A DNA stretch of 34,867 nt from a virus (taxonomy: Duplodnaviria > Heunggongvirae > Uroviricota > Caudoviricetes). Below are positions 20,857-34,442 of the stretch, piece by piece. The translations under genes and the position numbers were made by a program. The stretch lies in IMG/VR virus record IMGVR_UViG_2684622580_000006, one strand, 5' to 3'. Below the pieces are notes generated by a model. The model was not told where the DNA came from. It searched no databases and saw nothing but the letters and a program-made list of their open reading frames with translations. Positions within the stretch are counted from its first letter, which is position 1; each line of letters begins with the position of its first letter.

Positions 20857-21885
20857 ATGACAAATGATATTTTTGTAGGAAATAACGTAAGAGTTTCAGT
20901 AAACCCAGAAGTCGTTGAACAACCCGGCTATCACGACCCAGGATATATTTCAACTGCTAATCTTGCTGCTTTTCCTGTTATCGGTTTCAAGAAAGATGTC
21001 CAATCGCTAGAAGACTTTCGCGATGACTTTACGGTTAAATTATCCGGTGACGTAACAGTTAATGACACTTTTATAAGTCTTTTTGAAACTTCTGATGACC
21101 CAGTTTATCAGTTGCTTGATGAAGCGTTAATGGAAAAGAAACTAATCAGATTCAGAAACCTTTATGTTATCGATGGTGAATCGAAAAAAGAAAATGAATC
21201 CGGTCTGTATCATATTTTCAACGCTTGGGTAACTAAGAAAGAAACAACAGGCTCCGAAAACTCAGTTGTTACTACCACTTTTAATCTTTCTCCTGATGGT
21301 CAGATTTTCACTGGCTTTGCTGAATTCACTGCTCCGTTAAACGTTGGTGATTATGGCGTTGGTGCTGGTACAGAAGAAATCGAAGGTGTTAAAGATTTAG
21401 GTCTGTTGAGTGGTAATAGATGGGTAACAGTTGACGCAACGAACAGCGATAACCCTTATAACTCTGGCACGTCTGCTATGGCTATTCAGCATCCTGATGG
21501 ACAAGGTTGGGAGCTTATTGGTTCGTCAGTCGGTAATCCAAGTATCAGAATCAGAAATAAACAAATTGCACACGACGAATCTGTTACAGAATCTCCGTGG
21601 GTGAAAGTCTATACAGAACTTGAACGCCCTACTCCTGAAGATATTAACGCATTGCCAATTACTGGTGGAACTCTGAAAGGTTCACTTGTTATTGAGGAAT
21701 ATCTAACAGTACGTAAAAAGATTTCTGCTCCGCAAGGTGAAATTCTGGCTCTAAATAGTAATGAAATTAACTCAACTTCTGTAAAGGTCAAAGGCTCAGA
21801 AGTCTATTCTCCAAGTAACAAACCAACACCATTAGAGATTAATTGTGTAGCGTTAGGAGAAACTTTAGATGCAGGAGTTTTTTAA
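20857..21885 (+). CDS. Structural protein with a fiber-like C-terminal segment (342 aa)
   Basis: Contains LPITGGTLKGSL, a motif type common in tail fiber/tube accessory domains; lies between head and fiber genes. Confidence 0.55.
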   Translation: MTNDIFVGNNVRVSVNPEVVEQPGYHDPGYISTANLAAFPVIGFKKDVQSLEDFRDDFTVKLSGDVTVNDTFISLFETSDDPVYQLLDEALMEKKLIRFRNLYVIDGESKKENESGLYHIFNAWVTKKETTGSENSVVTTTFNLSPDGQIFTGFAEFTAPLNVGDYGVGAGTEEIEGVKDLGLLSGNRWVTVDATNSDNPYNSGTSAMAIQHPDGQGWELIGSSVGNPSIRIRNKQIAHDESVTESPWVKVYTELERPTPEDINALPITGGTLKGSLVIEEYLTVRKKISAPQGEILALNSNEINSTSVKVKGSEVYSPSNKPTPLEINCVALGETLDAGVF

Positions 21886-21897
21886 CGGATAAAGAAA

Positions 21898-24729
21898 ATG
21901 GCAAATAACAAAGTTAAACATTATAGAACAGACGTCGCCGGAAGAAAGCCAGAAGCAAAAAACATGCTTGATGGTGAAATCGCTATTAACTTAGCCGATC
22001 GAAAGATTTTCACTAAATTCGGTGACGCTGTTATTAACATCGGTAATGGTGCCGACGCTGTTGTTGAAGGTAGTCAGACCTTTACTGGCAAAATTAAAGC
22101 AAGTGATATTGAATCCGATTCGAATCTGACTTTAAAAAATCTTGATAAAAGCGATATTGTTTTTGCTGATGAACACGGTAAAGCAAAAGCACGTATTAGT
22201 TCTCCTGCTCAGACAGACTCTAAAGGTGAACTTCGTGTTACGGTAGCGAAAGGAAAAGCTACAGGAGAGAGTTCTGACTTCGTGCTTAACGGTAATGGTC
22301 AGTTATCTTTGCCTGCTGCTCCTGTTGCTCCTGATAGCGCTACGCGTAAAGATTACGTTGATTCTGAAATCAGCAAAGTTCAAACAGGTTCAAGTGCTGA
22401 CCTGACGAAACTCGAACAGAAAGTTGATGCTAACGACGCTGCTATTAACACTCGCGTTGATAATCTGAATTCAAAAGTTGACCAGAACGACACGGCTATT
22501 AATACGAAAGTTGATGCGAATAAAGCTGATGCTGACGAAAAGATTAAAGCAGTTAATGACCGTTTGACTGTTGATAATCAGACTCTGAAAGACATGATTG
22601 ACACCAAAGTTAATAAAGCTGGCGACACGATGACTGGCGACTTAACTGTTCCTAAGTTAAATGCTACTGACATTAGAACCACAAAGATGCTCGTTACAAC
22701 TAATCCTGTTGAAGCTAACGCTCTTGGTGATAACTCTATTGCTATGGGTGATGGTGATACAGGTCTGAAATGGCAATCTGATGGCAAATTGCAATCATGG
22801 TCGAATAATATTCCTGTAACAGAACTTGATAAGTCTGAAATCAAATTTAATAGAAACGCAACCTTTCGTTTCAGAAGCGATAACGGTGAAATTGACTTGA
22901 TGACTCCTGATGGTATGAGTCTTGTTAAAATTGATACTACGAAAGACGGTAATAACACTGGCGATTCTATCAGTTATCTGGGACTTGTTAACTCAGGAAA
23001 ATATAATCACTATCTGAGAGGCACAGGCAGAACTTATATTGATACTCACGAAGGTCTCGGTGTTGCTGGTCCTACAAGTTTCTATCAGACTATTTTTAAC
23101 AACAAAGGACACGGAAGCTACGATAGTGAATCATTGCCTATTTGGACTGATGCTGGATTTCAGACAAATCATCTTCGTAAACTTAGAGCTAGAGACGCCG
23201 CTACAATTTTTCATGAAGCTGTTGTTGGTGATCATGAAGATCCTAGAGCTAGACAATCGATAAGTTGGTGGCATGGCAATGGTCCTGAAACTTTCATTGC
23301 CTCGATGCAACAGGATGGAACAATTAACGCATATCGTTTTAATACGTCGGCTGAATATGAAGCGATTAATCTAAAAACGAAAAATCGCGAAGCTGCATAT
23401 ATTAGAGGCACAGACGGTGACAAAACCTCATGGTTATTTGGTCGTTTGAATCCCGGTGATAACAGGTTAATTGCTCGTTCTACTATCGACCAAGACGGAA
23501 GTTCTACTGTTGACTTGGAGTTGGATTCAGGAAGCAAATACTTCGGTGTTAATGTTGGTGGGAATAGAATTGCAAGATTTCATGAAAAGAATATTATTAT
23601 CGACGGAAGAAAATGGGCTGCAGACAATAGTCACGCGTGGGCAGACCAATGGAATCAACTTCCTCCTGTTGCTATAGAATTTGGTGCTGTTCCTGCTGCG
23701 AGTGATTATTATCCTGGTTATGCGTTACAAAGTAGCTCTGTTGGTTTTGGTTATTCAACTCGATTCGAACTTGGTATGATTCGTGCTCCTGCTGATCAAT
23801 TCGGTAAAGGTATTCTTCGTGTAGGAACATATGAAGAAGGTGCGTCGAAGAGAATGGCGAATTACGAGTTTGATATTGACGGAAGATTCGCAGTTCCTGG
23901 TAAAATTAATACTCCTTACGTGGAAACCGATCGTTTAACAAGCTTTGGTGTTCATACTAATAACTTGCTTGGTGGAAACTCTATTGCTTTCGGTGACCAA
24001 GATACGGGTATTCGTCAAAGATTCGACGGAAACTTAGAGATTATTACAGATTCGCTTCATCTGGCTACGTTTAATCCTTCAGGCTTAACTATTAATGATC
24101 GTATGATTTCAGTTAACGCTCCCAATAATTCTCGCGGTATTTACGTTGGAAATGTGAGAACTGGTAATGCTAATGCGATGATTCAAGGTCAAGTCGATGG
24201 ATGGGCTGATTGGGGTGCATGGCGTGATCGTCCTGCGGGAATGACCGTTGAAGCTCCTACTCGTTCGAAATGTATTAATATCTGGAAACATGTTCACTGG
24301 GGCACTGAATGGGGCGCTGCGATGGACGTTTATAATCCCGACGGTGCAGGTCCTGAAGCCCAATTACACGTTGGTGGTGCAAACTATCATTTCAGCGGTA
24401 ACGGAACAGCAAACGCCATTTCTTGGGTTAGCACTTCTGATAAACGTCTGAAATCAAATTTTGAAGAAATTGAAAACGCGGTTGATAAAGTCGAGAAACT
24501 TACTGGTTACGTATACGATAAGAAATCTGATTTAGTCGAAACTGAATATTCATTCGAAGTTCGTGAAGCAGGTATTATCGCTCAAGAATTGCAAGAGGTT
24601 CTTCCAGAAGCTGTTAGTTCTTTCGGACCTGACAAAATTCTTGGTGTTAACTCTGCTGCTGTAAACGCGTTGTTGGTTAATGCTATCAAGGAATTAAGTG
24701 CTCGCGTTAAAGAACTTGAAGCTAAATAA
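21898..24729 (+). CDS. Tail fiber / tailspike with a C-terminal S74 intramolecular chaperone (self-cleaving) domain
   Basis: 943 aa; imperfect repeats VDANDAAINTRVDNLNSKVDQNDTAINTKVD and GDTMTGDLTV; C-terminus SWVSTSDKRLKSNFEEIENAVDKVEKLTGYVY...GIIAQELQEVLPEAVS...LLVNAIKELSARVKELEAK is the classic peptidase S74 chaperone signature. Confidence 0.8.
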   Translation: MANNKVKHYRTDVAGRKPEAKNMLDGEIAINLADRKIFTKFGDAVINIGNGADAVVEGSQTFTGKIKASDIESDSNLTLKNLDKSDIVFADEHGKAKARISSPAQTDSKGELRVTVAKGKATGESSDFVLNGNGQLSLPAAPVAPDSATRKDYVDSEISKVQTGSSADLTKLEQKVDANDAAINTRVDNLNSKVDQNDTAINTKVDANKADADEKIKAVNDRLTVDNQTLKDMIDTKVNKAGDTMTGDLTVPKLNATDIRTTKMLVTTNPVEANALGDNSIAMGDGDTGLKWQSDGKLQSWSNNIPVTELDKSEIKFNRNATFRFRSDNGEIDLMTPDGMSLVKIDTTKDGNNTGDSISYLGLVNSGKYNHYLRGTGRTYIDTHEGLGVAGPTSFYQTIFNNKGHGSYDSESLPIWTDAGFQTNHLRKLRARDAATIFHEAVVGDHEDPRARQSISWWHGNGPETFIASMQQDGTINAYRFNTSAEYEAINLKTKNREAAYIRGTDGDKTSWLFGRLNPGDNRLIARSTIDQDGSSTVDLELDSGSKYFGVNVGGNRIARFHEKNIIIDGRKWAADNSHAWADQWNQLPPVAIEFGAVPAASDYYPGYALQSSSVGFGYSTRFELGMIRAPADQFGKGILRVGTYEEGASKRMANYEFDIDGRFAVPGKINTPYVETDRLTSFGVHTNNLLGGNSIAFGDQDTGIRQRFDGNLEIITDSLHLATFNPSGLTINDRMISVNAPNNSRGIYVGNVRTGNANAMIQGQVDGWADWGAWRDRPAGMTVEAPTRSKCINIWKHVHWGTEWGAAMDVYNPDGAGPEAQLHVGGANYHFSGNGTANAISWVSTSDKRLKSNFEEIENAVDKVEKLTGYVYDKKSDLVETEYSFEVREAGIIAQELQEVLPEAVSSFGPDKILGVNSAAVNALLVNAIKELSARVKELEAK

Positions 24730-24753
24730 CGAAAATGGGAGAAATCCCCTTTG

Positions 24754-24763
24754 CTAAATAAAC
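24754..24763 (+). promoter_or_regulatory. Late-promoter-like motif CTAAATAAAC
   Basis: 28 nt upstream of the ATG at 24791. Confidence 0.4.
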
Positions 24764-24790
24764 TATATTAACTCAAATAGGAAATTAAAA

Positions 24791-25270
24791 ATGGCAGACA
24801 AATTTGATATTTTTGCTGGCTCTTACGTCAGTGTGTTCTATAACTCAGAAATCACAAACACTGATATTAATTCAGAAAAGTTTGTTGAAATTCCTGAAAC
24901 TGGTGCATTCCCTTCTACGGGTATTGAGCGAGAAGTTATTACAGCTCCTAACTTCTCTCACAAATATTCCCGTAAACTGGTTGGTCGTGGCTCTGTTCCT
25001 GATATCGACTTGACTGTTAACTATATTCCAGAAAGCGTTCATGATGTTCTGATTAAGCTTGCGGAAGATGGCAAACGTGGTCAGTTCAAAATCGTTTATT
25101 GGGTCGATGCTTCTAAAGATCTGGGTGTTGCAAAAGTCTATAACGGCTTCTTGTCAAGCGCTGTTCACAATGGTGGAGAATCAGAAGTTTCTGGTCTGAC
25201 TCTGACTCTTTCTGTTGACGGTGGTCCAGTTGCTTCAGGCGTTATCGATACAACTACTCCTACTCCGTAA
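24791..25270 (+). CDS. Putative major tail (tube) protein
   Basis: 159 aa, beta-rich, size and pattern of siphovirus tube proteins; preceded by the late motif and followed by a strong terminator. Confidence 0.5.
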   Translation: MADKFDIFAGSYVSVFYNSEITNTDINSEKFVEIPETGAFPSTGIEREVITAPNFSHKYSRKLVGRGSVPDIDLTVNYIPESVHDVLIKLAEDGKRGQFKIVYWVDASKDLGVAKVYNGFLSSAVHNGGESEVSGLTLTLSVDGGPVASGVIDTTTPTP

Positions 25271-25286
25271 TATCGAAGTTGAACGA

Positions 25287-25311
25287 AGGACTCCTTGTGA
25301 GTCCTTTTTTT
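25287..25311 (+). terminator. Intrinsic terminator after the tail-tube-like gene
   Basis: aggactc-cttgt-gagtcct followed by ttttttt; same AGGACTC stem family as the terminator at 20102. Confidence 0.6.
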
Positions 25312-25315
25312 GGCT

Positions 25316-25325
25316 CTAAATAAAG
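25316..25325 (+). promoter_or_regulatory. Late-promoter-like motif CTAAATAAAG
   Basis: Exact 10-mer also at 29449 and 30938; 13 nt upstream of the ATG at 25339. Confidence 0.4.
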
Positions 25326-25338: not shown

Positions 25339-25755
25339 ATGTTTAAATTTCAAGCTGACTTATCAAAATTACTGAATCGATATATCAACAAAGAACATCA
25401 ATTCGGTCAAAACGACTGTAATATCCTTGTTGCTGAATATATCGACCTTGTTTGTGTTACTGAATACACAGACAAATTAAAAGACAAATATACGAGTATT
25501 CCTGAAGGTCTCAAGATTTGCAAAAAACTCACTGGTTTTAACAACGTTCTCGAAGCTTGTGAAAATCATCTTGAGAAATCAGAAAAGATAGAAACTGGCT
25601 CGGTTATCTTAATTAAGAAAAAACATAAAAACCGTGTCTATTACGTTGCGTCCATCGTTTTCAATAATCAAGCATTAGTTGAACACGAAAACAAATACAA
25701 ACTAGTGAACGTCAACGATTTTAACTTTGAATTAATTTTTAACAGGAGAAAATAA
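25339..25755 (+). CDS. Hypothetical protein (138 aa), translationally coupled to the gpJ-like gene
   Basis: Stop overlaps the next ATG (TAATG). Confidence 0.55.
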
Positions 25756-28700
25756 TGGCCATTGCTGCTATTGGTGCAATTATTGCGGGTGCTTCCGCTG
25801 CTGCTGCTGCATATGCCGCTGGTGCTGCAATTGCTGTTGCTATCGGTATTGGTGTTGCTGTTGCTGCTGTTTCGGGATTAATGTCCTATTCGATGAAAGA
25901 ATCTGTTCCTCGATTTAATAGCGCAGACACTGCAACGACATTAGGAACAACGTCTGACCCTGCAAGCGTAATTCCTATTATCTACGGCGAACAACGCACA
26001 GGGACAATTAACGTTTGGAAAGCTGTTGGTGTCGATACGACTTATCTGGTGCAAGTCTTTGCAATCTGTGAAGGAGAAGTTGATAGCTTCAAAAACCTGT
26101 ATATGGATAATCAGAAAATCTTACTTGATGGAACTTACAGAGATGGAATTTTAGATAAAGGCTCTATCGCTGCCGAATATCAGAATTTCGTTGAAATTGA
26201 ATTCTCAACTGGTAAACCATACGGTCACGTTTTCACGCTTGCTCAAAAATATCTGGGTAATGATGTTGCTGGTTGGCCTGATTCTGCAACTGGTAATGGT
26301 ATCGCTTCTGTGTGTGTTGTTATGCGCAAACGTAACACAGACTTAGAAAACCAAGCTGATATTCTGCAACCTAACAGTCAAGTAGCTGTTGACGTTAGAG
26401 GACGTTTGATTACAGACCTGAACACAGGAGGCATCGTCCCTTCAAACAATGGTCCTAGTCAAGCAGTCGATTATCTGACGAACGAACGTTACGGTCTGGG
26501 TATTCCACTTGATAAAATCAATCTTGATAGTTTCAAGCAATGTGCAGAACACGCAAAACTGAACAGTCTGTTTTCTAACGGTGCAACTGACCCGAATGGT
26601 TCATTCAAAGAAAACTTAACTCAGATTGCAGGTGCTTTTAACGGTATTATCACTGAATCTTTCGGACTGGTTACTTGCGTTATCGATGGTCCTGGTGTTG
26701 TTCAATATGATTTCAACGAAGATAATATTAATGCTGGAACTGTTAGCTTGAATGATGGCGGAACAGAGAATTACTACAATACTCTGAACGTGAAATATCA
26801 AGATCCTGAAATCGATTATTCTGACCAAGTTCTTCGTTATCCGTCTGACGTAACAAATGATGGAACTATCGCGAAAGACAAACGTATTATCGCAAAAGAT
26901 ATCAGTTACAGATTCGTTAAAGGAAAAGACCAGTTAGACAAAATTGCTTCAATCGAACGAAGCAAATCACTGTTACAACAGGTTATTAGTTTTTCTTCTA
27001 CTGATGCTTATACCGTACAAGTATGGGATATTATCAGAGTTAATTTCGAAGAACTGGAACTGACTGATTCATTATGGCGAGTAACTAACGTTGATCGCAC
27101 GATGGAAAAAGGTGCTGCTGGTATCGTTACTATTACCGCTGCTGAATATATCGAAGAAGTTTATACCGATCTTGACTACGCGAAAGACCCGGATAACTCA
27201 GGAAGTAACATTCCAAACAAAGCTGTTCTTATTCCACCGAAGAATCTGACAGTTAAAGCAGTTGCTGAAACAGCACTCGGAAGAACTTTGAAAGTGCAAT
27301 GGACGTCTGAACCTGATTATAACCGCGCAGGTTATTATATTCAGTATAGTCTTGCTGGCAAGAACTCCTGGACTCAAGCAGGTTTCACATCAGGCGATTA
27401 TTTCTTGATTATGAGTCTTGATCCTAATCAGAAATTTGATATTCGTGTTTGTGCTTCTGGTGTTGTGTATCGTTCAGATTGGGTATATGTGAATAACGTT
27501 AACCCTGATGTTACGTATAACTTACCAAGCGTCACAGGATTACGCCTAGTGAACGCGGTTGAAAATCAGTACACCACTAACAAGACTCAATTTGAATTCG
27601 CTTGGGACGACCAGAGCGCACAGAAATTCTATGTTGACGACACGTTACAGACATTCGGTGAAGTTTTTCAATATTACGAAATTAAACTCGAAGGTCAACG
27701 TCCTGTAATTTGCAAGACTAAAGATTTAGGTTTTGTATATGACTTTAATATGAACTTGGGTAATGGTCTGAGTCGTGAACTGAAAGTTTCTGTTACTGCA
27801 TACGGTCACGCTGGTATGAAATCAGATCCGAGTATTATTACTGTTAAGAACAATCAAGCTCCTGCGATTCAAGGTTTCACAGCTTCTAATGGTCCTGGAA
27901 TGCTGATGTGTTCATGGAATGACCCACGCGATAATATTCCTGAAGTTCCTGACTTCAAAGGCACAATCGTTCATATTGCGAAAGACCAAAGCTTTAATGA
28001 AATTGTCCACGTTTATTCAAGCTCAAGTCCGTTTTTAGACAACTTCCCGTTAGAAGATGGTCAATTCTATGTTCGTGCAGCATGGTATGACGTTTTCGGA
28101 CAAGACCAGATTACTTGGTCACAGGCGACTTATATCGATATGAAATGGGATATTCCATGGAACGACGATATGAAAGACCAGTTGGAAGACTTGTTAGATC
28201 TGAACAACCGAGTTGATGGTGCTATCGATGAAGCGTTGAAACTTGCTAAGGAATATACTGACACCGAGGTTATTGCTTCTGAACAAAAAGTTGTTACCGA
28301 ACTGAATCAGACAATCACAACGAAAAACACCGAACTGTATACACAAATTACAGATGAAACGAATGGCGCTATTAATCAGGCTATTACGATTCAAGAGGCG
28401 AATTTCGATGGAAAACTGAATTCAGCAATCACTAAAGTTGAAAAAACTCAAGCTGATGATAGAGAGGCAACTGCAAGTTCTATTAGCCAACTGAAAGCTG
28501 AAACTGACTCGGCAATTGCAAGTGTTTCAACAGAAGCAAAAGCAAGCGTTGACGAACTGACAGGAACTATTAACAGCAAATGGGCAGTTCAGACTAATGC
28601 CGACGGTGTTGTTGCTGGTATCAGTATGCTCGCTAATAAAAATGCTGACGGTTCGAAATCATCAAGCATTATTTTCAACGCTGATAAAATCGCTATTACG

Positions 28701-29444
28701 AATAACAACACTCCTGAAGGTGCTGTTCCTCCGTTCATGGTTGCAGATAATAAGACTTATCTTCAAGATGCTATGATTCGCGATGCTTCAATCGGTAATG
28801 CGAAAATTGGTTATGCTGCTATTGATACAGCGAAGATTCAAGACGCTGCTATTAACAACGCTAAAATTCAAGATGGTGCTATTACATCAGCGAAGATCGG
28901 TAATGCTCAGATCGGTAATGCTCAGATTGCTTATGAAATATCGTCTGATAACTGGTTCCCTTCCGGTGGTACTCAAGGTTGGACAATCAGAAAAGACGGT
29001 TGGGCTTCTTTCCAAAACGTTAATATCAGAGGTAACATTCAAGCAGATTCTGGTTATTTCGCAGGTGAAATCAGAGGCGGTTCAGGTTATTTCACAGGAA
29101 CTGTATACGCTGACAGAATTGAAGGTGACGTTATCAAAATGGGTCATATAGATCCGTGGACAACAGTTCATATTCCTGCTGTTAACTGGAACAGAGTAAT
29201 TGCTATTCCAAACCTTGCGATTTCAGGCAGAACTTATTCTGGTGGCGCTTGGGGCTACGGAACTGCATGGATTAATATGACGAACGGTCAAGAAATCGTA
29301 AGAACAGTTACCAGTGCAATGAGTGGTTCAAACGGTGGTACGGCTATTATCTATGCGGGACAAGCTGTTGATTTGAGTTACGGTGCTGACTTGAATCATG
29401 CGACCGCAGCAAGAGCAGTTTACTTTATCAGTAAACAACAATAA
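25755..29444 (+). CDS. Host-specificity / central tail fiber protein (lambda gpJ-like) with an unusual hydrophobic N-terminal segment
   Basis: 1229 aa; [23 protein letters not shown] resembles gpJ ISEGPIEGPVDGLKSVLLNSTPVLD; FN3-like block ([13 protein letters not shown]...); [13 protein letters not shown]...[10 protein letters not shown] resembles gpJ GIGLSMEDTEEGK...FVAQGNQIF; first 45 residues are Ala/Gly/Ile-rich. Confidence 0.6.
28783..28932 (+). repeat. Tandem hexapeptide-coding repeats inside the gpJ-like gene
   Basis: Encodes [52 protein letters not shown]; the nucleotide repeat atcggtaatgctcag is directly duplicated. Confidence 0.6.
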
Positions 29445-29448: not shown

Positions 29449-29458
29449 CTAAATAAAG
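29449..29458 (+). promoter_or_regulatory. Late-promoter-like motif CTAAATAAAG
   Basis: Exact 10-mer; 30 nt upstream of the ATG at 29489. Confidence 0.4.
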
Positions 29459-29488
29459 ACAAGGAGGTCTTTAAAAAGGAGATTCAAG

Positions 29489-29773
29489 ATGGTCGATATG
29501 GCACTGATCATTTCCATCTTGGGTGCTCTAGGAGGTTTCTTGGCTTGGGTTTATGCCGAAATTAAATCAAACAATGAAAAACGACTTGACCTTGAGAAAC
29601 GTTTCTCAGACATCGAAAAAAGCATTGCCGTTAATGACGCAAAAGATGCTTCGCTTATAAGCGATATAACCAGACAACAGGATGAATTTCGAGAGGTCAA
29701 ATCTGATTTGAAGAATTTAGAAGGAAGGACATCAAAGCTAGACATCGACCTAGCAGTTCTAAGAGGAAAATGA
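29489..29773 (+). CDS. Membrane-anchored coiled-coil protein (holin / i-spanin-like topology)
   Basis: 94 aa; N-terminal transmembrane helix MALIISILGALGGFLAWVYA followed by a charged coiled coil; AAGGAG SD. Confidence 0.5.
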   Translation: MVDMALIISILGALGGFLAWVYAEIKSNNEKRLDLEKRFSDIEKSIAVNDAKDASLISDITRQQDEFREVKSDLKNLEGRTSKLDIDLAVLRGK

Positions 29774-30246
29774 AAAGAAAAGAGATTCCGATTTATAAGC
29801 AAGAACTCTTTCAAAAGCAAAAAGGTCTTTGTGCGTTAACAGGCATAAAGATTCACGAAGTTAATAAAGCCCATCTTGACCATGACCATATTTTAACAGG
29901 CTCTAACGCAGGCAGATGCAGAGGATTATTAATCGCTCAAGCAAACGTCCTCGAGGGTAGAATAAAACATCAGTTTAAACGTTCAGGTCTCGATGGGAAA
30001 ATTGACTACATCGAGTTTTTAAAGAATCTTGTTCAGTATCTTGAAAAAGACTACTCAGACAATCCTACGCATCCACAACTTATTCCCGATTTAAAGAAAG
30101 CGTTCTCTCGAAAAAATCTTTCTGAGATGAAAGCTATTACAGGTTCAAACCTTAAAACGAAAAAGGAGCTTGAAAAAGTCTACTCAAACCAAATAAAGGT
30201 GAAATATGAAAATGAAATATCTCCAAGCAATGGCAAAACACGCTAA
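29770..30246 (+). CDS. Endonuclease VII (T4 gp49-like Holliday junction resolvase) homolog
   Basis: 158 aa; HLDHDHILTGSNAGRCRGLL...EGRIKHQFKRSGLDGKIDYIEFLKNLVQYLEKDYSDNPTHP aligns closely to T4 Endo VII HLDHDHELNGPKAGKVRGLL...EGQMKHKFNRSGLKGQGVDYLEWLENLLTYLKSDY. Confidence 0.85.
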   Translation: MKRKEIPIYKQELFQKQKGLCALTGIKIHEVNKAHLDHDHILTGSNAGRCRGLLIAQANVLEGRIKHQFKRSGLDGKIDYIEFLKNLVQYLEKDYSDNPTHPQLIPDLKKAFSRKNLSEMKAITGSNLKTKKELEKVYSNQIKVKYENEISPSNGKTR

Positions 30247-30403
30247 AGATTATCTTATTGTTCTATTTCTCGTTACTGTAACTTATAACACTGTTGCTGT
30301 TCCTGTTCTGCAAGCTTTCGATATTAAAGCGCCTAAAATGATTCTTATCAGCGAAGAACAGATTAAAACATTCGGGGCACTTCTGATGTCAGGAGTGAAC
30401 TAA
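30206..30403 (+). CDS. Small membrane protein (65 aa), holin/antiholin-like
   Basis: AGGTGA SD 5 nt before the ATG; one hydrophobic helix YLIVLFLVTVTYNTVAVPVLQAF; overlaps the 3' end of the Endo VII gene. Confidence 0.4.
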   Translation: MKMKYLQAMAKHAKDYLIVLFLVTVTYNTVAVPVLQAFDIKAPKMILISEEQIKTFGALLMSGVN

Positions 30404-30945
30404 TGGCAAAAGCAAAAGATGTTATGAAAGACCTTGAAAAATGGCGAATCAAAGAATCTGACGTGTTCAGTAAGAAAGTAACCAAAGCGTCTAAACTCGC
30501 TTCTGTTGAGTTGCAAAGAAAAATCAATAGACGTGTTGACGGACCAGTTAATTTCACTAAGAACGCAGTAGGTTTCAGTTTCAGATACGATCAGAACGGG
30601 TCACGAAATAGAATATTCATCAAAGACAAGCAGGCTGATTATCTTGCTCCGTTGATTGATGATAACAAAGGAATTAACAAGTTTGTTCCAACTGGCGTAA
30701 GAGGTTCAAAGAACAAATTCGGTAACATTCCTAACTTGAAATCAAGAAATAATCTTGAAGCTGTCAAACAGAAAAAAGATGGCGTAACTCGAACGATCCT
30801 CATTAAAACTAACGTTAAAAAGCAAGACCGTCGTTTAATTGCTGTGTTCAAGAAAAATCAACATAGAAGAAAAACTCTGGGTTCATGGAATCAAATCTCT
30901 GACGATTTTTTCAAAACCGTTAAGCGTGTTGCGGGCACTAAATAA
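30403..30945 (+). CDS. Basic hypothetical protein (180 aa)
   Basis: Lys/Arg-rich; coupled to the preceding ORF. Confidence 0.55.
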   Translation: MAKAKDVMKDLEKWRIKESDVFSKKVTKASKLASVELQRKINRRVDGPVNFTKNAVGFSFRYDQNGSRNRIFIKDKQADYLAPLIDDNKGINKFVPTGVRGSKNKFGNIPNLKSRNNLEAVKQKKDGVTRTILIKTNVKKQDRRLIAVFKKNQHRRKTLGSWNQISDDFFKTVKRVAGTK

Positions 30946-30947
30946 AG
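30938..30947 (+). promoter_or_regulatory. Late-promoter-like motif CTAAATAAAG
   Basis: Exact 10-mer overlapping the stop of the upstream gene; 16 nt before the ATG at 30963. Confidence 0.4.
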
Positions 30948-30962
30948 TCAAAAGGAGAACAA

Positions 30963-31280
30963 ATGAACATTCACGATTTTGATACTTACAGATTAGACGA
31001 ACTTGCCGACATCTACGTTAACGAGATTAATCCCGAGTCAATGACTGTTCCTTACGGTTGCGAACACATCAAAGATAAGCGCATTAAAAAATATCTGTTC
31101 AACGATAAAAACGTTTTTATTGTTTCAACACAAAAGAAAAAACCTAATTGTCATTTCAAATTAGGACAGACAGTTCGACTGCAAGGTCCATTTTTTGAGA
31201 CCGAAGCGAAGAACTTAGGAATGATTGAATATATCCACAAAGGTTTCAGAATGTACGGATATTTCTTTCAATGGAAATAA
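30963..31280 (+). CDS. Hypothetical protein (105 aa)
   Basis: AAGGAG SD; followed by an imperfect hairpin plus T-tract at 31286-31307. Confidence 0.55.
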   Translation: MNIHDFDTYRLDELADIYVNEINPESMTVPYGCEHIKDKRIKKYLFNDKNVFIVSTQKKKPNCHFKLGQTVRLQGPFFETEAKNLGMIEYIHKGFRMYGYFFQWK

Positions 31281-31307
31281 CAAAAGGAAGCCTCGCGCTC
31301 CCTTTTT

Positions 31308-31319
31308 CATAAATAAAAG
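31308..31319 (+). promoter_or_regulatory. Late-promoter-like motif CATAAATAAAAG
   Basis: Variant of the CTAAATAAA motif, 25 nt upstream of the ATG at 31344. Confidence 0.35.
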
Positions 31320-31343: not shown

Positions 31344-31652
31344 ATGAATTTCGATGAAATGTTAGCATCATTATCACCAAAACGCGAAGCTGTTGAAATC
31401 AACGGTTATAAATTCTATGCACGTCCGATGACTGTATCCGAGTTTGGTGAATTCTATTTCAAAAATGAAAACACAGAAGAACGTAATGACCGAATGATTC
31501 TGAATTGTATTCAGCACGAAGACGGAACAAGCGTTTTTAAAGAAATCTCTCAAGTTCAGAAACTTTATACAACTGTTCGTTCGCAACTCGCAAGCGCTGT
31601 TTCAAACGCTAGTATTCTGACTAAGGATTCAGACATTCTGGAAAAGAACTAA
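31344..31652 (+). CDS. Tail assembly chaperone (lambda gpG-like)
   Basis: 102 aa ORF immediately upstream of the tape measure gene; the next ORF overlaps in the -1 frame. Confidence 0.6.
   Translation: MNFDEMLASLSPKREAVEINGYKFYARPMTVSEFGEFYFKNENTEERNDRMILNCIQHEDGTSVFKEISQVQKLYTTVRSQLASAVSNASILTKDSDILEKN
31640..31646 (+). other. Candidate -1 programmed frameshift site G_GAA_AAG (G to GT fusion)
   Basis: In the chaperone frame ...CTG GAA AAG AAC TAA; the -1 frame is open from 31625 and continues into the 31688 ORF, which has no SD of its own; the Lys tRNA can re-pair on AAA. Confidence 0.45.
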
Positions 31653-31687
31653 GACAGAACTGGGCAAAATCATTTCAGTATCGAACA

Positions 31688-32050
31688 ATGTTACGTCGCG
31701 GATTATCTAACGAAGAAATTCAACAGATGTCCGTAATGATGTATTATGAATTATGGTTTTTCGATTCGTTTATTGAACCACAAAGTCCTGTCTATAACGA
31801 TTTCTATCAAGCTCGATTGATTCACACTATCGAAGCAAATAACCCGAATCTGACCAAAGAGTACAGGAAAAAGTTGAACATGAAAGACCATCAGCTTATT
31901 AAAGATTCTGTGTTTAAGTCTCAAGAAGAAATCGAAAAAGAGAAAGAACAACAGGAGATTAAACGTAAGAAAGCTATTGAATCGATGTTCGACCCAGCTC
32001 TGTTAGATAAAGTTAAACTGAGAAAAACAAAAAAGGTGAATAATGGCTAA
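31688..32050 (+). CDS. Tail assembly chaperone C-terminal extension (gpT-like), probably expressed as a G-T fusion
   Basis: 120 aa ORF in the -1 frame relative to the chaperone ORF; no ribosome-binding site upstream of its ATG; overlaps the tape measure start by 8 nt. Confidence 0.5.
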   Translation: MLRRGLSNEEIQQMSVMMYYELWFFDSFIEPQSPVYNDFYQARLIHTIEANNPNLTKEYRKKLNMKDHQLIKDSVFKSQEEIEKEKEQQEIKRKKAIESMFDPALLDKVKLRKTKKVNNG

Positions 32051-34442
32051 ATCACGTTATGACGTTGAGATTAACGGAGATAACAAAGGCCTTTCAAAAT
32101 CTATTGATAAGTCTATGGAGCAACTGAACGAACTTGATTCGGTTGCTAATGGACTTTTTAGTAATATGACAGGACCGTTGAATAATCTCAACAGTGGAAT
32201 ATCAGGTATTGCAGGAATGTCCTCGGGTATGCAAGCTCTGGGGATTGCAGGAATGGCAGCAGGTGTAGGTGTCGCCGCTCTTAATACCGCTTTAGAAAAA
32301 ACAAGAGAACTTAATCAGATCTCTACGTCAACTGGACTTTCAGTTGAATATCTGCAACAGCTTCAAAAAGAATTTCGCACTACAGGAATGGAAATTGACC
32401 GATTCGGGGATCTTAACAAAGATACTCTCGACCATCTCGGTGATTCATTCAGAGAAGGCGCAGGTGGTATTGGTGATGACCTTGAAAAATGGGGTATTGG
32501 TCTTGAGCGATACACTCAATATGTTAACGACGCTGAAGGCGGTATTAAAGCACTTGTTCAGACGTATTATGACCTGAAAAAAGCTGGTGCAAGTCAAGCT
32601 GAAATCGTTAACGGAATGGAGTCTATGGCTTCTGACGGTTCTCACTTGATTACTGTTCTTGAAAAATACGGCTCAACTCAAGAAGCATTAAACGCTATCA
32701 ATAACCAATCAGCTAGTATTACAAACGAAACAGCAAGAGAATACCAAGGATTCGATGAAAACATGAAAACGCTTTCGGTGAACTTGGATAATTTAACTGT
32801 TAACGTTATGGGTCCTCTCGTTTCGAAAATGAATAATCTTTATGATATTGCGAATAAAGATTGGACAGCTAGTAATATCCTCGATTTCTTTACTAAGATT
32901 GATAGCTTACGTCCTGATAAGATGTTAGCAGATTGGGCGGCTGACACAGTTGTTGATGCTTACGCAGACGCTAATCCTACTTCTGGCGCAGGTCAACGTA
33001 AACAGCAAAAAGATTATCTTGATACGACAGAACGTTTTCTGAAACAGACCAAAGCTCAAGGCGATAAAGCTTATGAAAAACGTAAGCAAGACGAAATAAC
33101 ACGAGCGAAGTTACAGAAACAGCGTAATGAGAAAGCCGCTGAGGATGCGAAAAAAGAAGCTGATAAAGCTAAACGCGAAGCTGACAGAATAGCAAGAGAG
33201 CAAGAACGCGCTGGGAAAGAAAAGCTACGCTTACAGGAGCAAGCCGCAAGAGAATCTAAAGCTGCTTACGATAAGATGATGCAAGAAAGGGAGACAGCGT
33301 TACAGAGTCTTTCCAGTCTTGATGCTGCAATTCTGAGTCAAGAAGGTCGCACGATTTCAAATCAGGTTAGTCAAGTTCAACAGGCTATTAAAACTATCTC
33401 AGAACTTGAGAAAAAAGGAATTATCTCCGCTGAACAGGCTAAGCAACGTCGAAACATGCTGTTTAAAACATCTAATGCAGAATTTAAACAGACTCTTATG
33501 ACGAGTCCTGAAGAAATTGGAGCAATCACGACAAGTCTTGAAGTTGTATATCAGCAACAGCTTGAACAACTCGAAGCGAAGAAAGCCCAGTCGTTAATCA
33601 GTCAGCAAGAATACAACACACAGGTTGAAGCATTACAGCAAGACCATCAGTCACGTCTTGAAGCTATTAAAGCAACGAGCGGTGACGGTAATATGGCTAA
33701 TATGAAAAATCTCAGTGCGTTGGGTTTTGCAACTGACGAAGAACAGATGGCTATTCAACAAGCCGCGTTAGATGAACAATTTCAGAAAATGCGTGAACAG
33801 AACCAGAAATTATATGATGGTCAGTTAATCAATCACGAGCAATTCCTGCAACAGAAAGCACGTCTTGACCAAGCGTATGCCGCGAAGTCGAAACAAATTA
33901 CTTTCTTGGAAACTCAGACGAAACTCCAGATGTATAACGGGTTGGCTTCTGGTATGGGTTCAATAATCGCTGGTATCGCAGGTGAAAGTTCGGACGCTGC
34001 TCAAGCTGTATTTGCTATTCAGAAAGGAACAGCAATCGCAAGCGGTATGTTAAACGCTTATGAATCCGCGACTGCTGCAATGGCTAAATATCCTGGTCCT
34101 ATGGGTTACGCTATGGCTGCTTCAAGCTATGCGCGTGTTATCGGACAAGTCTTGCAGATGAAATCAGTGAATATTACTGGTATGGCTCACGATGGTATTT
34201 CAGAAGTGCCAAGAGAAGGGACATGGTTGCTTGATGGTGGCGAACGTGTTGTTGATGAACGCACTAACGGCGACTTAAAAGAATTCTTAGACAATAACAA
34301 AATAGGAGAAGCAACAAAAATCGATGCAAGTATTCACGTAAATGGAAATGTTACTGATCAGCGTTGGTTTGCTGAACAATTAAAACGTCAGCAACAGAAC
34401 ATCGCGGCTATTGTGCAAGACTGCAACAGACGCAAGATGTAA
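32043..34442 (+). CDS. Tail tape measure protein
   Basis: 799 aa, alpha-helical; Gly/Ala-rich hydrophobic segments (GIAGMSSGMQALGIAGMAAGVGVAAL; GLASGMGSIIAGIAG); long charged coiled coil (KAAEDAKKEADKAKREADRIAREQERAGKEK); follows the G/GT pair. Confidence 0.75.
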   Translation: MAKSRYDVEINGDNKGLSKSIDKSMEQLNELDSVANGLFSNMTGPLNNLNSGISGIAGMSSGMQALGIAGMAAGVGVAALNTALEKTRELNQISTSTGLSVEYLQQLQKEFRTTGMEIDRFGDLNKDTLDHLGDSFREGAGGIGDDLEKWGIGLERYTQYVNDAEGGIKALVQTYYDLKKAGASQAEIVNGMESMASDGSHLITVLEKYGSTQEALNAINNQSASITNETAREYQGFDENMKTLSVNLDNLTVNVMGPLVSKMNNLYDIANKDWTASNILDFFTKIDSLRPDKMLADWAADTVVDAYADANPTSGAGQRKQQKDYLDTTERFLKQTKAQGDKAYEKRKQDEITRAKLQKQRNEKAAEDAKKEADKAKREADRIAREQERAGKEKLRLQEQAARESKAAYDKMMQERETALQSLSSLDAAILSQEGRTISNQVSQVQQAIKTISELEKKGIISAEQAKQRRNMLFKTSNAEFKQTLMTSPEEIGAITTSLEVVYQQQLEQLEAKKAQSLISQQEYNTQVEALQQDHQSRLEAIKATSGDGNMANMKNLSALGFATDEEQMAIQQAALDEQFQKMREQNQKLYDGQLINHEQFLQQKARLDQAYAAKSKQITFLETQTKLQMYNGLASGMGSIIAGIAGESSDAAQAVFAIQKGTAIASGMLNAYESATAAMAKYPGPMGYAMAASSYARVIGQVLQMKSVNITGMAHDGISEVPREGTWLLDGGERVVDERTNGDLKEFLDNNKIGEATKIDASIHVNGNVTDQRWFAEQLKRQQQNIAAIVQDCNRRKM

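What the first reader, a model, noticed from the sequence alone, without database searches (positions are those of the whole stretch)
20857..34442. Non-canonical order of the tail module
Siphovirus tail genes usually run tube, chaperones G/GT, tape measure, distal tail, tip/fibers. Here the fiber (21898), tube-like gene (24791) and gpJ-like gene (25755) come first, then membrane proteins, Endo VII and three small genes, and only then G/GT and the tape measure protein. The tape measure gene is followed by a convergent minus-strand gene. This suggests module rearrangement or a mosaic origin.
Basis: inference. Interest (0 to 1): 0.45.

Follow-up and report, generated by a model that had tools for sequence, protein, structure and literature searches.

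The report
Scrambled but intact phage tail module
This E. coli prophage-like island carries a complete set of siphovirus tail genes whose order has been reshuffled into separate cassettes, each headed by a short T4-phage-style late-promoter motif; the shuffled order is real, conserved and under selection, not an assembly error or decay.

Summary
The window is an E. coli chromosome segment with a ~34-kb serine-recombinase island between ybiT and ldtB. On the + strand the order is: tube paralog with extension, fibre, tube, DUF6950, gpJ-like, membrane protein, Endo VII, small genes, chaperones, tape measure. The distal-tail and hub genes that seemed missing lie 27 kb away on the minus strand (4215-5437), next to the recombinase.

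Seven complete E. coli genomes and many IMG/VR contigs share this order. A sister lineage puts the chaperone-tape-measure cassette after the lysozyme gene. More distant relatives keep the canonical order. The rearranged elements form one clade in tube and gpJ trees. All tail genes have dN/dS of 0.07-0.25. Identity to canonical relatives is similar across blocks. This supports internal rearrangement and argues against mosaic acquisition, decay or misassembly.

Every block starts with an NNTAAATA motif like the T4 late promoter (TATAAATA), often after a shared terminator hairpin, and the motif moves with its cassette. I infer self-contained late transcription units shuffled by recombination at these cassettes. 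No gp55-type sigma factor or replication gene was detected, so what reads the motif is unknown.

The parts
1785..3290 (+). Large serine recombinase (integrase) at the left end of the island, 39 bp from the ybiT start codon
   Evidence: PHROG 95 integrase, E 5e-74. Annotated 'recombinase family protein' in NZ_AP027790.
4215..4862 (-). Baseplate hub protein (215 aa), displaced and inverted
   Evidence: Pfam PF09931 'Baseplate hub protein, N-terminal attachment domain' at 28 bits (cut-off 26). PHROG 2048 tail protein, E 1e-19. 44% identical to the gene that follows the distal tail gene in DCP80.
4862..5437 (-). Distal tail protein (191 aa), displaced and inverted; first gene of the minus-strand distal-tail-hub unit
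   Evidence: PHROG 1302 distal tail protein, E 5e-22. The Hafniaceae homologue has a weak T5 pb9 B-domain hit. It lies directly after the tape measure gene in all canonical relatives.
5436..5461 (.). Back-to-back pair of late-promoter-like motifs (CATAAATA ... TATTTATG) in the 33-bp divergent spacer between the distal tail gene (minus strand) and the lysozyme gene (plus strand)
   Evidence: Sequence. An equivalent inverted pair is present in all type 2 and type 3 relatives. No upstream ORF exists on either strand here, so the motif cannot be a stop-codon by-product.
5471..5956 (+). T4-type lysozyme, divergent from the distal tail gene
   Evidence: Pfam Phage_lysozyme, E 6e-11; PHROG 430/7.
20100..20145 (+). 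Terminator hairpin (GAAGGACTCC...GGGGTCC, then T6) plus ACTAAATAAA motif after the capsid gene; a repeated cassette
20857..21885 (+). Tube-protein paralog with a C-terminal extension (342 aa); probably the fibre-anchoring tube ring
   Evidence: N-terminal 160 residues are 24% identical to the 159-aa tube protein (E 5e-10). The AlphaFold model (pLDDT 70-90 over residues 10-155) matches lambda gpV, 8k36_A, E 8.7e-7, TMt 0.64. Some homologues carry Pfam Phage_T4_gp36 in the C-terminal part.
21898..24729 (+). Tail fibre (943 aa) with a C-terminal intramolecular chaperone domain
   Evidence: PHROG 1699, E 8e-114; Pfam Peptidase_S74, E 4e-15.
24754..25270 (+). GCTAAATA motif (24754-24760) and the tail tube gene (24791-25270, 159 aa)
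   Evidence: PHROG 158, E 2.5e-14. Homologues have PF16461 and are named tail tube protein. The gene sits directly upstream of the chaperones in canonical relatives.
25285..25322 (+). Terminator hairpin (same GAAGGACTCC stem as after the capsid gene) plus TCTAAATA motif. This is the derived junction between the tube gene and DUF6950.
   Evidence: The same hairpin-plus-motif precedes DUF6950 in type 2 and type 3 relatives and in DCP80, where the upstream gene is the hub instead.
25339..25755 (+). DUF6950 protein (138 aa), always directly upstream of the J-like gene
   Evidence: Pfam PF22262, E 8e-11; PHROG 2134.
25755..29444 (+). gpJ-like central tail fibre / tip protein (1229 aa) with a hydrophobic N-terminus
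   Evidence: Pfam Phage_Tail_Tip, E 2e-24; PHROG 31, E 5e-59; PDB 23gd_D 'J-like tail tip protein', E 4e-6.
29449..30945 (+). TCTAAATA motif (29449) leading a unit of a 94-aa membrane/coiled-coil protein (29489-29773), Endo VII (29770-30246), a 65-aa ORF (30206-30403) and a 180-aa putative minor tail protein (30403-30945)
   Evidence: PHROG 423 Endo VII, E 6e-36. PHROG 1924 minor tail protein, E 1.5e-4 (weak). Motif.
30938..31280 (+). ACTAAATA motif (30938) and a conserved 105-aa gene of unknown function; last gene of the J block
   Evidence: Homologues are present in all arrangement types.
31282..31315 (+). Hairpin (31282-31306) plus CATAAATA motif (31309-31315). This is the derived junction where the chaperone-tape-measure cassette now sits.
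   Evidence: In relatives L029/L063 this junction carries the GGACTCC...GGGGTCC hairpin found elsewhere at the tube/DUF6950 junction.
31344..32050 (+). Tail assembly chaperone pair. G-like ORF at 31344-31652. The T-like reading frame is -1, open from 31625 to 32050. Candidate slip site G GAA AAG at 31640-31646.
   Evidence: PHROG 344, E 4e-6; weak Pfam Phage_TAC_13. Frame analysis. 'N GAA AAG' before the stop codon and a -1 T frame are conserved in all type 2 and type 3 relatives.
32043..34442 (+). Tape measure protein (799 aa)
   Evidence: PHROG 13674, E 2e-72, covering residues 7-798.
34511..34867 (-). Convergent 118-aa cargo gene of unknown function. A second 148-aa minus-strand gene and the right end of the island lie just beyond the window.
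   Evidence: No family hit. 95% identical in L022 although the neighbouring tape measure protein is only 52% identical.

Best explanation
The island encodes one complete lambda/GTA-style siphovirus tail gene set: two tube paralogs, fibre, chaperone pair with a -1 frameshift, tape measure, distal tail protein, hub, DUF6950 and a J-like tip. In an ancestor of an Escherichia/Klebsiella/Enterobacter clade this set was cut at transcription-unit boundaries and re-joined in a new order.

Relative to the canonical order still seen in relatives:
1. The block [chaperones, tape measure, distal tail, hub] left its place between the tube gene and DUF6950.
2. The distal-tail-hub pair was inverted and now diverges from the lysozyme gene.
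3. The 3.1-kb chaperone-tape-measure cassette sits either after the 105-aa gene (this window) or after lysozyme (the sister lineage).

The tail can still be built because each block is its own late transcription unit. Every block begins 9-50 nt upstream of its start codon with an 8-bp NNTAAATA element. This matches the T4-family late promoter, which needs no -35 element and works in either orientation. At the hairpin-bearing junctions (after the capsid gene, the fibre gene, the tube gene and the 105-aa gene) it follows a rho-independent terminator hairpin. These repeated terminator-promoter cassettes probably also served as the recombination points that moved the blocks.

Shown: the gene identities; the order here and in relatives; conservation of the order; purifying selection; the position, enrichment and co-movement of the motif.

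Inferred: that the motif is a promoter; that cassette recombination caused the moves; the exact sequence of events.
For: Order and conservation:
- The same order is found in 7 of 5426 complete E. coli genomes, spanning 100%, 88.6% and 74% nucleotide identity.
- It is also found in IMG/VR contigs L003-L006, L022, L023, L029 and L063, whose tape measure proteins are 50-100% identical.
- The left-end arrangement (recombinase, hub and distal tail inverted, lysozyme) is conserved in L010-L013.
- The sister arrangement is seen on single contigs: L024, and L025+L017+L009. K. pneumoniae L076 also has tube, DUF6950, J and the 105-aa gene, then host DNA.
- Canonical order is kept in the DCP80 segment, L030/34/37/41/47/62, Hafniaceae and Atlantibacter.
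- The rearranged elements form one clade in tube and J trees.

Function retained:
- dN/dS is 0.07-0.25 for every tail gene, including the displaced ones.
- The slip site and -1 T frame are conserved.

Motif:
- 12 of 20 [CA]TAAATA sites fall in the 3.2% of strand-space within 60 nt upstream of a start codon. All 12 precede structural or lysis genes.
- TAAATA is the most start-proximal hexamer in the window: 44% of its copies are upstream of starts, against 5.3% for AT-only hexamers. This exceeds the Shine-Dalgarno hexamers.
- None of these sites is called as a sigma-70 promoter.
- The motif precedes the chaperone gene whether its upstream neighbour is the 105-aa gene, lysozyme or the tube gene. 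It forms a back-to-back pair in the divergent distal-tail/lysozyme spacer.
- L023, L029 and L063, and the DCP80 segment, have perfect TATAAATA, as before gp22, gp18 and soc in the T4-like part of the DCP80 record.

Literature:
- T4 late promoters are an 8-bp TATA box with no -35 element, occur in either polarity, and have an (a/g)C variant at -13/-12 in phage Aeh1 (PMC2988020).
- Composite terminator/promoter cassettes mediate modular shuffling in T4-type phages (PMC2839356, PMC4122927).

Shared hairpin-plus-motif cassettes at different junctions are documented.
Against: - No transcription data exist, so promoter activity of the motif is inferred from position and conservation only.
- No gp55, gp33 or gp45 homologue was found in the window or in 1.3 Mb of related loci (tblastn). 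Pfam and PHROG scans of the early-region proteins found none either. The factor that would read such a promoter is therefore unidentified.
- About half of the window's sites have C at -12 (CTAAATA), a deviation from the T4 consensus, although it is known from Aeh1.
- The motif contains TAA in two frames, and in one case (the 180-aa gene) it overlaps the real stop codon.
- The history needs at least three events, and their order cannot be resolved.
- The recombinases of the two rearranged lineages are only 38-39% identical, so integration modules were also exchanged.
- Several copies carry IS insertions in capsid or J genes, so not every copy is functional.
- No virion has been observed.
Confidence: 0.65

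Rival explanations
1. The odd order is mostly an artefact of linearising a circular phage genome at its attachment site. In the excised circle the tail genes would be canonical.
For: The recombinase and both island ends lie between the tape measure gene and the distal-tail/hub genes. In the circle, the tape measure stop codon and the hub gene would be only about 3.3-3.7 kb apart.
Against: No circular permutation restores the canonical order. The tube gene is joined directly to DUF6950-J. The chaperones and tape measure come after J. The distal-tail-hub pair is on the opposite strand. Contig L024 spans the equivalent junction in the sister lineage and is still non-canonical.
Confidence: 0.05
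2. Mosaic origin: the chaperone-tape-measure cassette and/or the distal-tail-hub pair were acquired from a different phage and inserted at new sites, replacing lost originals.
For: Phage genomes are mosaic. Within the clade there is clear local exchange. The fibre is 61% identical and the tape measure protein 78% against L003, while neighbouring genes are 99-100%. J and capsid trees are incongruent with the tube tree. The tape measure N-terminal domain is shared with unrelated Serratia and Klebsiella phages.
Against: The displaced genes are as similar to canonical relatives as the non-displaced ones. Against the Hafniaceae relative the values are: chaperone 46%, T-frame product 54%, tape measure 38%, distal tail 53%, hub 52%; compared with portal 42%, capsid 47%, tube 62%, J 52%. 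Each has an orthologue at the canonical position in those relatives, so the same gene set was rearranged, not replaced.
Confidence: 0.1
3. The island is a decaying cryptic prophage. The order was scrambled by IS elements or recombinase accidents and no longer matters because no tail is made.
For: No replication genes were recognised. Several copies carry IS insertions: IS3 in the capsid gene of NZ_AP027790, an IS in the J gene of L008, and IS50R, IS2 or ISEc68 in others. The element is rare (7 of 5426 genomes).
Against: All tail ORFs are intact in the window. dN/dS is 0.07-0.25 across relatives that already share the rearranged order. The order is stable down to about 50% protein identity and across Escherichia, Klebsiella and Enterobacter. 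Junctions are tight and carry conserved regulatory cassettes with no IS scars. The frameshift site is conserved.
Confidence: 0.1
4. Assembly misjoin in the source genome.
For: None specific. The closest phage record (DCP80) is itself visibly misassembled.
Against: Four independent complete chromosomes are 100% identical over the whole region. Three further complete genomes and more than ten independent contigs are colinear with it.
Confidence: 0.01

Closest known systems
Canonical siphovirus tail module (lambda V-G/GT-H-M-L-K-I-J; HK97-like)
   Same: Same functional parts: a gpV-fold tube protein; a chaperone pair with an overlapping -1 frame; a tape measure; a distal tail protein; a hub; a J-like tip with the Phage_Tail_Tip domain; and a terminator after the tube gene.
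   Different: The colinear order is broken into at least three places and two strands. The hub is of the phiJL001/DUF2163 type, not gpL. DUF6950 replaces gpK/gpI. There is a second tube paralog with a fibre-like extension upstream of the fibre gene.
Uncultured or unnamed relatives with the same gene set in canonical order: the 26-kb segment of GenBank PQ671644 (Escherichia phage DCP80), Hafniaceae and Atlantibacter prophages, and IMG/VR contigs L030/34/37/41/47/62
   Same: Orthologues of essentially every structural gene, at 25-62% amino-acid identity. They share the NNTAAATA motifs before the tube, chaperone, distal tail and 105-aa genes, and the tube paralog plus fibre upstream of the tube gene.
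   Different: They keep the order tube, chaperones, tape measure, distal tail, hub, DUF6950, J. The DCP80 record is a chimeric assembly (three rIIA copies, duplicated primase and exonuclease genes), so only its contiguous 26-kb segment is informative. The Hafniaceae relative has its own inversion of the 180-aa gene, 105-aa gene and lysozyme.
T4-family late gene organisation and PeSL cassettes (Geiduschek & Kassavetis 2010, PMC2988020; Arbiol et al. 2010, PMC2839356; Comeau et al. 2014, PMC4122927)
   Same: An 8-bp TATAAATA-like element without a -35 element lies shortly upstream of late genes, on either strand. Structural genes are dispersed in several units. Composite terminator-promoter cassettes sit at points where neighbouring genes differ between relatives.
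   Different: This is a 34-kb integrative siphovirus-like element, not a 170-kb lytic myovirus. No gp55, gp33 or gp45 was detected. PeSLs combine a terminator with an early (sigma-70) promoter, whereas here the promoter-like part is of the late type.
Rhodobacter GTA / phage phiJL001-type tail tip
   Same: The hub matches Pfam PF09931 (phiJL001 Gp84 N-terminal attachment domain; RefSeq annotators call it DUF2163). The hub region has the same layout: distal tail protein, hub, a small protein, then a large J-like protein. No replication genes were recognised, as in GTAs.
   Different: It has an integrase, a small terminase subunit and a lambda gpA-type large terminase. It occurs sporadically, as a mobile element would. 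GTA genes are colinear.

Membership tests
Siphovirus (lambda-type) tail morphogenesis module | Tail tube protein with a gpV/Hcp-like fold | tested here: met
   PHROG 158, E 2.5e-14. Homologues carry PF16461. The paralog model matches lambda gpV, E 8.7e-7, and the two paralogs align at E 5e-10.
Siphovirus (lambda-type) tail morphogenesis module | Chaperone pair G/GT made by -1 programmed frameshift just upstream of the tape measure gene | tested here: inconclusive
   The architecture is met: the -1 frame is open from 31625, 'G GAA AAG' lies 4 nt before the stop codon, and both are conserved in all type 2 and type 3 relatives. Frameshifting itself was not demonstrated, and the T frame also has its own ATG at 31688.
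Siphovirus (lambda-type) tail morphogenesis module | Tape measure, distal tail protein, hub and central fibre all present | tested here: met
Siphovirus (lambda-type) tail morphogenesis module | Colinear order tube, chaperones, tape measure, distal tail, hub, tip on one strand | tested here: not met
   The order here is tube, DUF6950, J, further genes, chaperones, tape measure. Distal tail and hub are on the minus strand at 4215-5437.
T4-family late transcription units | 8-bp TATAAATA-type element, no -35 element, shortly upstream of late genes, in either orientation | tested here: met
   There are 12 sites before structural or lysis genes, with strong positional enrichment. They are conserved and move with their cassettes in relatives. 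The definition is taken from PMC2988020.
T4-family late transcription units | Element encodes the late sigma gp55, the co-activator gp33 and the sliding clamp gp45 | tested here: not met
   tblastn with the DCP80 gp55, gp33 and gp45 gave no hit with E <= 0.4 in the window and none with E <= 1 in 1.3 Mb of related loci. Pfam and PHROG scans found no hits. BLAST-level sensitivity only.
T4-family late transcription units | Transcripts start about 6-10 nt downstream of the motif late in infection or induction | not testable with these tools
   Requires RNA 5'-end mapping.
PeSL-like recombination cassettes | Composite terminator hairpin plus promoter at boundaries where gene neighbours differ between relatives | tested here: met
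   Hairpin plus motif is present at capsid/98-aa gene, tube/DUF6950 and 105-aa gene/chaperone junctions. The same hairpin sequence occurs at different junctions in different relatives.
PeSL-like recombination cassettes | Promoter part is an early, sigma-70-type promoter | tested here: not met
   No sigma-70-like promoter was called at these sites. The motif is of the late type.
Phage satellite (PICI/P4/PLE-like) | Lacks most virion structural genes and hijacks those of a helper | tested here: not met
   A complete head, packaging and tail gene set is present.
Phage satellite (PICI/P4/PLE-like) | Life cycle depends on a helper phage | not testable with these tools
   The only evidence is indirect. 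No replication or late-sigma genes were recognised. Promoter-like motifs are of the T4-family type. A relative was co-assembled with a T4-like phage in PQ671644.
Gene transfer agent | Packages random host DNA; not self-transmissible; no integrase | tested here: not met
   A serine integrase, a small terminase subunit and a gpA-type large terminase are present. The element has a patchy, mobile distribution. Packaging specificity was not testable.

The most novel reading that the evidence does not exclude
The island and its relatives form a class of integrative, virion-encoding elements with no detected replication genes or late sigma factor, whose structural genes are all wired to T4-family late promoters. 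On this reading they would depend on a superinfecting lytic phage that has a gp55-type late transcription system (T-even, rV5-like or ViI-like). The helper's replisome and gp55/gp33/gp45 machinery would replicate the element and switch on its structural genes, which then build the element's own siphovirus particles. That would be a satellite that borrows the helper's replication and transcription machinery and builds its own particles. The scrambled tail module would be a by-product of using position-independent T4-type promoters. The co-assembly of a relative with a T4-like phage in record PQ671644 would be the first trace of such a pairing.
Probability: 0.12. Interest if true: 0.9.

Novelty: new variant of a known kind. 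Interest (0 to 1): 0.55.

Why it matters
Gene order in siphovirus tail modules is one of the most conserved features of phage genomes, and annotation pipelines rely on it. Here a whole clade keeps a working, selected tail gene set after it was broken into cassettes on both strands.

There is a concrete candidate reason why this is tolerated: each cassette has its own simple late promoter. There is also a candidate route for how it happened: repeated terminator-promoter cassettes acting as recombination points.

This gives a natural test case for whether order matters for tail assembly. It also warns that 'missing' distal tail or hub genes may simply lie elsewhere in the element.

The T4-style promoter motifs, in an element with no recognisable late sigma factor or replication genes, raise a separate and testable question: what drives this element's late gene expression?

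Tried and rejected
- **Genome-contig scans.** Two scans with the J protein and a J alignment found nothing. The family is absent from the species-representative genomes, or the patterns were too strict.
- **L007-type element in E. coli.** A megablast search of complete E. coli genomes found nothing. That lineage lives in other Enterobacterales.
- **Extending an IMG/VR contig.** An exact-pattern search returned the same stored chunk. The tape-measure alignment scan solved this.
- **Serratia, Klebsiella and Dickeya siphoviruses.** They share the tape measure N-terminal domain, so I checked them as possible cultured relatives. They have a lambda-type M-L-K-I-J tip and a different family of structural genes.
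- **DCP80 segment elsewhere.** It is not a common E. coli prophage and is not present in any other phage record.
- **PDB sequence searches.** Searches with the hub and the tube protein gave no hits.
- **Attachment-site repeat.** No direct repeat longer than 7 nt was found between the two island ends, as expected for a serine recombinase. The exact island ends are therefore bracketed only: 1746-1784 on the left, and 440-820 bp beyond the window end on the right.
- **Window-wide long repeats.** The repeat search found no long repeats at block borders. Only the short hairpin/motif cassettes recur.
- **Literature.** Searches found no description of this element family, nor of T4-late-promoter-driven satellites.
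- **Motif as sigma-70 -10 box.** Rejected. The hexamers fit poorly and the scanner calls none of the sites.
- **Motif as stop-codon cluster.** Rejected as a general explanation, because of the back-to-back pair in the divergent spacer and the sites downstream of hairpins.

Full report
**What the window is.** The first 1.75 kb is E. coli ybiT. From 1785 onward there is a low-GC (about 38%) island that starts with a large serine recombinase. In NZ_AP027790 the island ends one gene beyond the window, in front of ldtB. Four complete E. coli chromosomes carry it at 100% identity. Two carry it at 88.6% (including MS 115-1) and one at 74%. That is 7 of 5426 genomes in all.

**Check of the observation.**
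- 21898-24729 is a fibre with an S74 chaperone domain.
- 24791-25270 is a tube protein.
- 25755-29444 is a gpJ-like tip protein.
- 29770-30246 is Endo VII.
- 31344-31652 is a tail assembly chaperone.
- 32043-34442 is a full-length tape measure.
- A convergent minus-strand ORF follows at 34511-34867.

The ORF after the chaperone is in the -1 frame, which is open from 31625. 'G GAA AAG' sits four bases before the chaperone stop codon. This hexamer-plus-frame arrangement is conserved in all close and sister relatives although the flanks differ. A G/GT-type pair is therefore likely.

Its first 160 residues align with the 159-aa tube protein (24% identity, E 5e-10). An AlphaFold model of it matches lambda gpV. 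Homologues carry a T4 gp36-like C-terminal part. It is probably a tube ring that anchors the gp37-like fibre encoded next to it; this is inference.

The distal tail protein (4862-5437) and the baseplate hub (4215-4862) are present. They lie on the minus strand at the other end of the island, between the recombinase and a T4-type lysozyme gene. The small terminase gene (about 7833-8372) is likewise 5.7 kb from the large one. The tail gene set is therefore complete but lies in three places on two strands.

**Synteny in relatives.** I projected the window's proteins onto 30-odd related loci by tblastn. This gave three main arrangements of the same genes.

1. *Canonical.* The order is tube paralog, fibre, tube, chaperones, tape measure, distal tail, hub, DUF6950, J, further genes, 180-aa gene, 105-aa gene. 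It occurs in a 26-kb segment of GenBank PQ671644 (phage DCP80), in IMG/VR contigs L030, L034, L037, L041, L047 and L062, and in Hafniaceae and Atlantibacter prophages. The Hafniaceae relative additionally has the 180-aa gene, 105-aa gene and lysozyme inverted.
2. *Type 2.* The order is hub(-), distal tail(-), lysozyme(+), chaperones, tape measure, small terminase, heads, tube, DUF6950, J, 105-aa gene, then recombinase(-) or host DNA. It is seen on single contigs (L024; L025+L017+L009) and in K. pneumoniae (L076).
3. *Type 3.* This is the window's order. It is also found in L003-L006 and L010-L013, and in much more diverged contigs L022, L023, L029 and L063, whose tape measure proteins are 50-56% identical.

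Types 2 and 3 share two derived junctions: tube|DUF6950, and hub(-) distal tail(-)|lysozyme(+). In neighbour-joining trees of the tube and J proteins they form one clade nested among canonical relatives. The capsid tree is incongruent with this, which indicates separate exchange of head genes.

**Rearrangement or mosaic?** Identity to the canonical Hafniaceae relative is 38-54% for the displaced genes and 30-62% for the rest. The pattern is similar against other canonical relatives. The displaced genes have orthologues at the canonical position in those relatives. This is internal rearrangement of one gene set, not acquisition from elsewhere.

Within the rearranged clade dN/dS is 0.07-0.25 for all tail genes, including the chaperones, tape measure, distal tail and hub. 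The genes therefore stayed under purifying selection after the rearrangement. A misjoin is excluded by the independent complete genomes.

Linearisation at the attachment site explains only one thing: the tape measure and the distal-tail/hub genes are neighbours across the junction, about 3.3-3.7 kb apart. It does not explain their opposite strands or the tube|DUF6950 join.

**How it can work.** While looking at block borders I found that TAAATAAA occurs seven times, all on the plus strand, six of them in short intergenic spacers of the late region. Generalised to [CA]TAAATA, 12 of 20 occurrences on both strands lie within 60 nt upstream of a same-strand start codon. That zone is 3.2% of the available space. 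TAAATA is the most start-proximal hexamer in the whole window (44% of copies, against 5.3% for AT-only hexamers), ahead of the Shine-Dalgarno hexamers.

The 12 sites precede lysozyme, the distal tail gene, both terminase subunits, the head-tail joining gene, the protease-capsid gene, the 98-aa gene, the tube gene, DUF6950, the 94-aa membrane protein, the 105-aa gene and the chaperone gene. None precedes the recombinase, cargo or regulator genes. None is called as a sigma-70 promoter.

In the 33-bp divergent spacer between the distal tail gene and lysozyme, two copies sit back to back (CATAAATA...TATTTATG). No upstream ORF could explain them as stop codons. Every type 2 and type 3 relative has an equivalent inverted pair.

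The motif travels with the downstream cassette. It precedes the chaperone gene whether the upstream neighbour is the 105-aa gene (type 3), lysozyme (type 2) or the tube gene (canonical).

Several relatives, and the DCP80 segment, have the perfect T4 late-promoter octamer TATAAATA. This is indistinguishable from the sites before gp22, gp18 and soc in the T4-like part of that record. According to Geiduschek and Kassavetis, T4 late promoters are an 8-bp TATA box without a -35 element, late transcripts have either polarity, and phage Aeh1 uses (a/g)C at -13/-12 (PMC2988020). That is the ACTAAATA/GCTAAATA variant seen at half of the window's sites.

I therefore read each block as a self-contained late transcription unit whose expression does not depend on position or orientation. 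This would explain why a scrambled order is tolerated. It is an inference from position, enrichment and conservation, not from RNA data.

**How it may have happened.** Three junctions in the window carry a terminator-like hairpin immediately followed by the motif: after the capsid gene, after the tube gene, and between the 105-aa gene and the chaperone gene. The first two share the stem GAAGGACTCC. A shorter hairpin with the same layout precedes the tube gene's motif (after the fibre gene, about 24737-24749).

In relatives the same hairpin sequence appears at different junctions. For example, GGACTCCGCAAGGGGTCC-T6 is at the 105-aa gene/chaperone junction in L029 and at the tube/DUF6950 junction in L003. 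In DCP80 a hairpin plus TATAAATA precedes DUF6950 after the hub gene.

These are short repeats flanking each block, analogous to the composite terminator/promoter 'PeSL' cassettes shown to mediate modular shuffling in T4-type phages (PMC2839356, PMC4122927).

A parsimonious path runs as follows.
1. Recombination between the cassettes after the tube gene and before DUF6950 excises [chaperones, tape measure, distal tail, hub] and creates the tube|DUF6950 join.
2. The excised block re-inserts at the cassette after the 105-aa gene.
3. The distal-tail-hub pair is inverted.
4. The 3.1-kb chaperone-tape-measure cassette relocates in one of the two lineages.

The recombinases of the two lineages are only 38-39% identical, so the integration modules were also exchanged. 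The exact order of events cannot be recovered from the present data.

**Open problem.** Nothing in the island looks like a late sigma factor or a replication protein.
- tblastn with gp55, gp33 and gp45 from the T4-like part of DCP80 finds nothing in the window or in 1.3 Mb of related loci.
- Pfam, PHROG and PADLOC scans of the 5.9-14 kb region find only a TIR defence gene, a small terminase, a GIY-YIG/NUMOD3 homing endonuclease, an HTH regulator and unknowns.

Either an unrecognised factor reads the motif, or the element relies on a superinfecting phage with a gp55-type system. The only phage-database relative is embedded in a visibly chimeric assembly of a T4-like lysate (three rIIA copies, duplicated primase and exonuclease genes). 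That relative is absent from all 5426 E. coli genomes and from every other phage record. This is compatible with co-propagation, but equally with contamination. I rate the helper-dependent reading as possible but unproven (about 0.12).

**Verdict.** It is a new variant of a known kind: a siphovirus tail module that has been cut into promoter-led cassettes and reshuffled, stably, in a small clade of enterobacterial integrative elements.

Noticed in passing
window 6298-7493: A 99-aa gene and a 298-aa TIR-domain protein (Pfam CAP12-PCTIR_TIR, E 5e-38; PADLOC candidate system PDC-S35, E 1e-70) sit between lysozyme and the small terminase gene. They are 98-100% identical in relatives whose flanking genes are only 61-71% identical (L011-L013), so this looks like a recently exchanged defence cargo.
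   Followed up: partly
L002, L016, L070 (GenBank PQ671644, Escherichia phage DCP80): The record is labelled a complete Tevenvirinae genome of 141 kb. It contains three rIIA genes, two primases, duplicated exonuclease, spackle and RNAP-binding genes in inverted copies, a terminase fragment, and a 26-kb siphovirus-like segment at its start. It looks like concatenated contigs of a T4-like phage plus a second element.
   Followed up: partly
window 20857-21885 and 24791-25270: There are two paralogous lambda-gpV-fold tube proteins in one tail module, one fused to a gp36-like or fibre-like C-terminal part and placed directly before the fibre gene. Both are conserved in every relative, canonical or rearranged. 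Which one forms the bulk of the tube is unknown.
   Followed up: partly
window 18853-18860: The only intragenic TAAATAAA lies inside the protease-capsid fusion gene, in the linker between the protease and capsid domains (about residue 266). It could give a separate capsid-only transcript.
   Followed up: no
window 5900-14030: Pfam and PHROGs recognise no replication initiator, helicase, primase, polymerase or classical repressor/Cro pair. The non-structural genes conserved among relatives are only the recombinase, the small terminase, and four small minus-strand ORFs (202, 54, 59 and 133 aa; the 133-aa one has a GntR-like HTH). Type 2 elements are equally compact (31.6-kb contig).
   Followed up: partly
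window 12427-13041: A GIY-YIG/NUMOD3 homing-endonuclease-like gene (PHROG 314, E 5e-18). Together with Endo VII, T4-type lysozyme, a gp37-like fibre and 38% GC, it gives the island a T-even-like character that is unusual for an E. coli integrative element.
   Followed up: no
window 1746-1784: The island's left end is at most 39 bp from the ybiT start codon. The insertion therefore splits the divergent ybiT-ldtB promoter region. Other E. coli strains carry different recombinase-led islands at the same site (1-2861 matches at about 89-90% identity with nothing beyond).
   Followed up: no
L001 21491-22719; L008 11231-12351; hits H4, H5, H63, H66: Several copies of the element are interrupted by IS elements: IS3 in the protease-capsid gene, an IS in the J gene, and IS50R, IS2 or ISEc68 elsewhere. 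The window's copy has all ORFs intact.
   Followed up: partly
window 34511-34867 and L022 12420-12773: The convergent 118-aa gene after the tape measure is 95% identical in L022, although the adjacent tape measure protein is only 52% identical there. This suggests a mobile cargo gene at the island end. No family match was found in Pfam, PHROGs or PADLOC.
   Followed up: partly
hits H6/H7 (E. coli 2021CK-01361 and MS 115-1): In the 88.6% variants of the island, a retron Ec67-family reverse transcriptase/endonuclease is annotated next to ybiT at the same locus.
   Followed up: no
L072 19434-20471 (Hafniaceae metagenome scaffold): An otherwise canonical relative has the 180-aa gene, 105-aa gene and lysozyme inverted after the J gene. 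This is a fourth arrangement, suggesting the whole family is prone to cassette-level rearrangement in the late region.
   Followed up: partly
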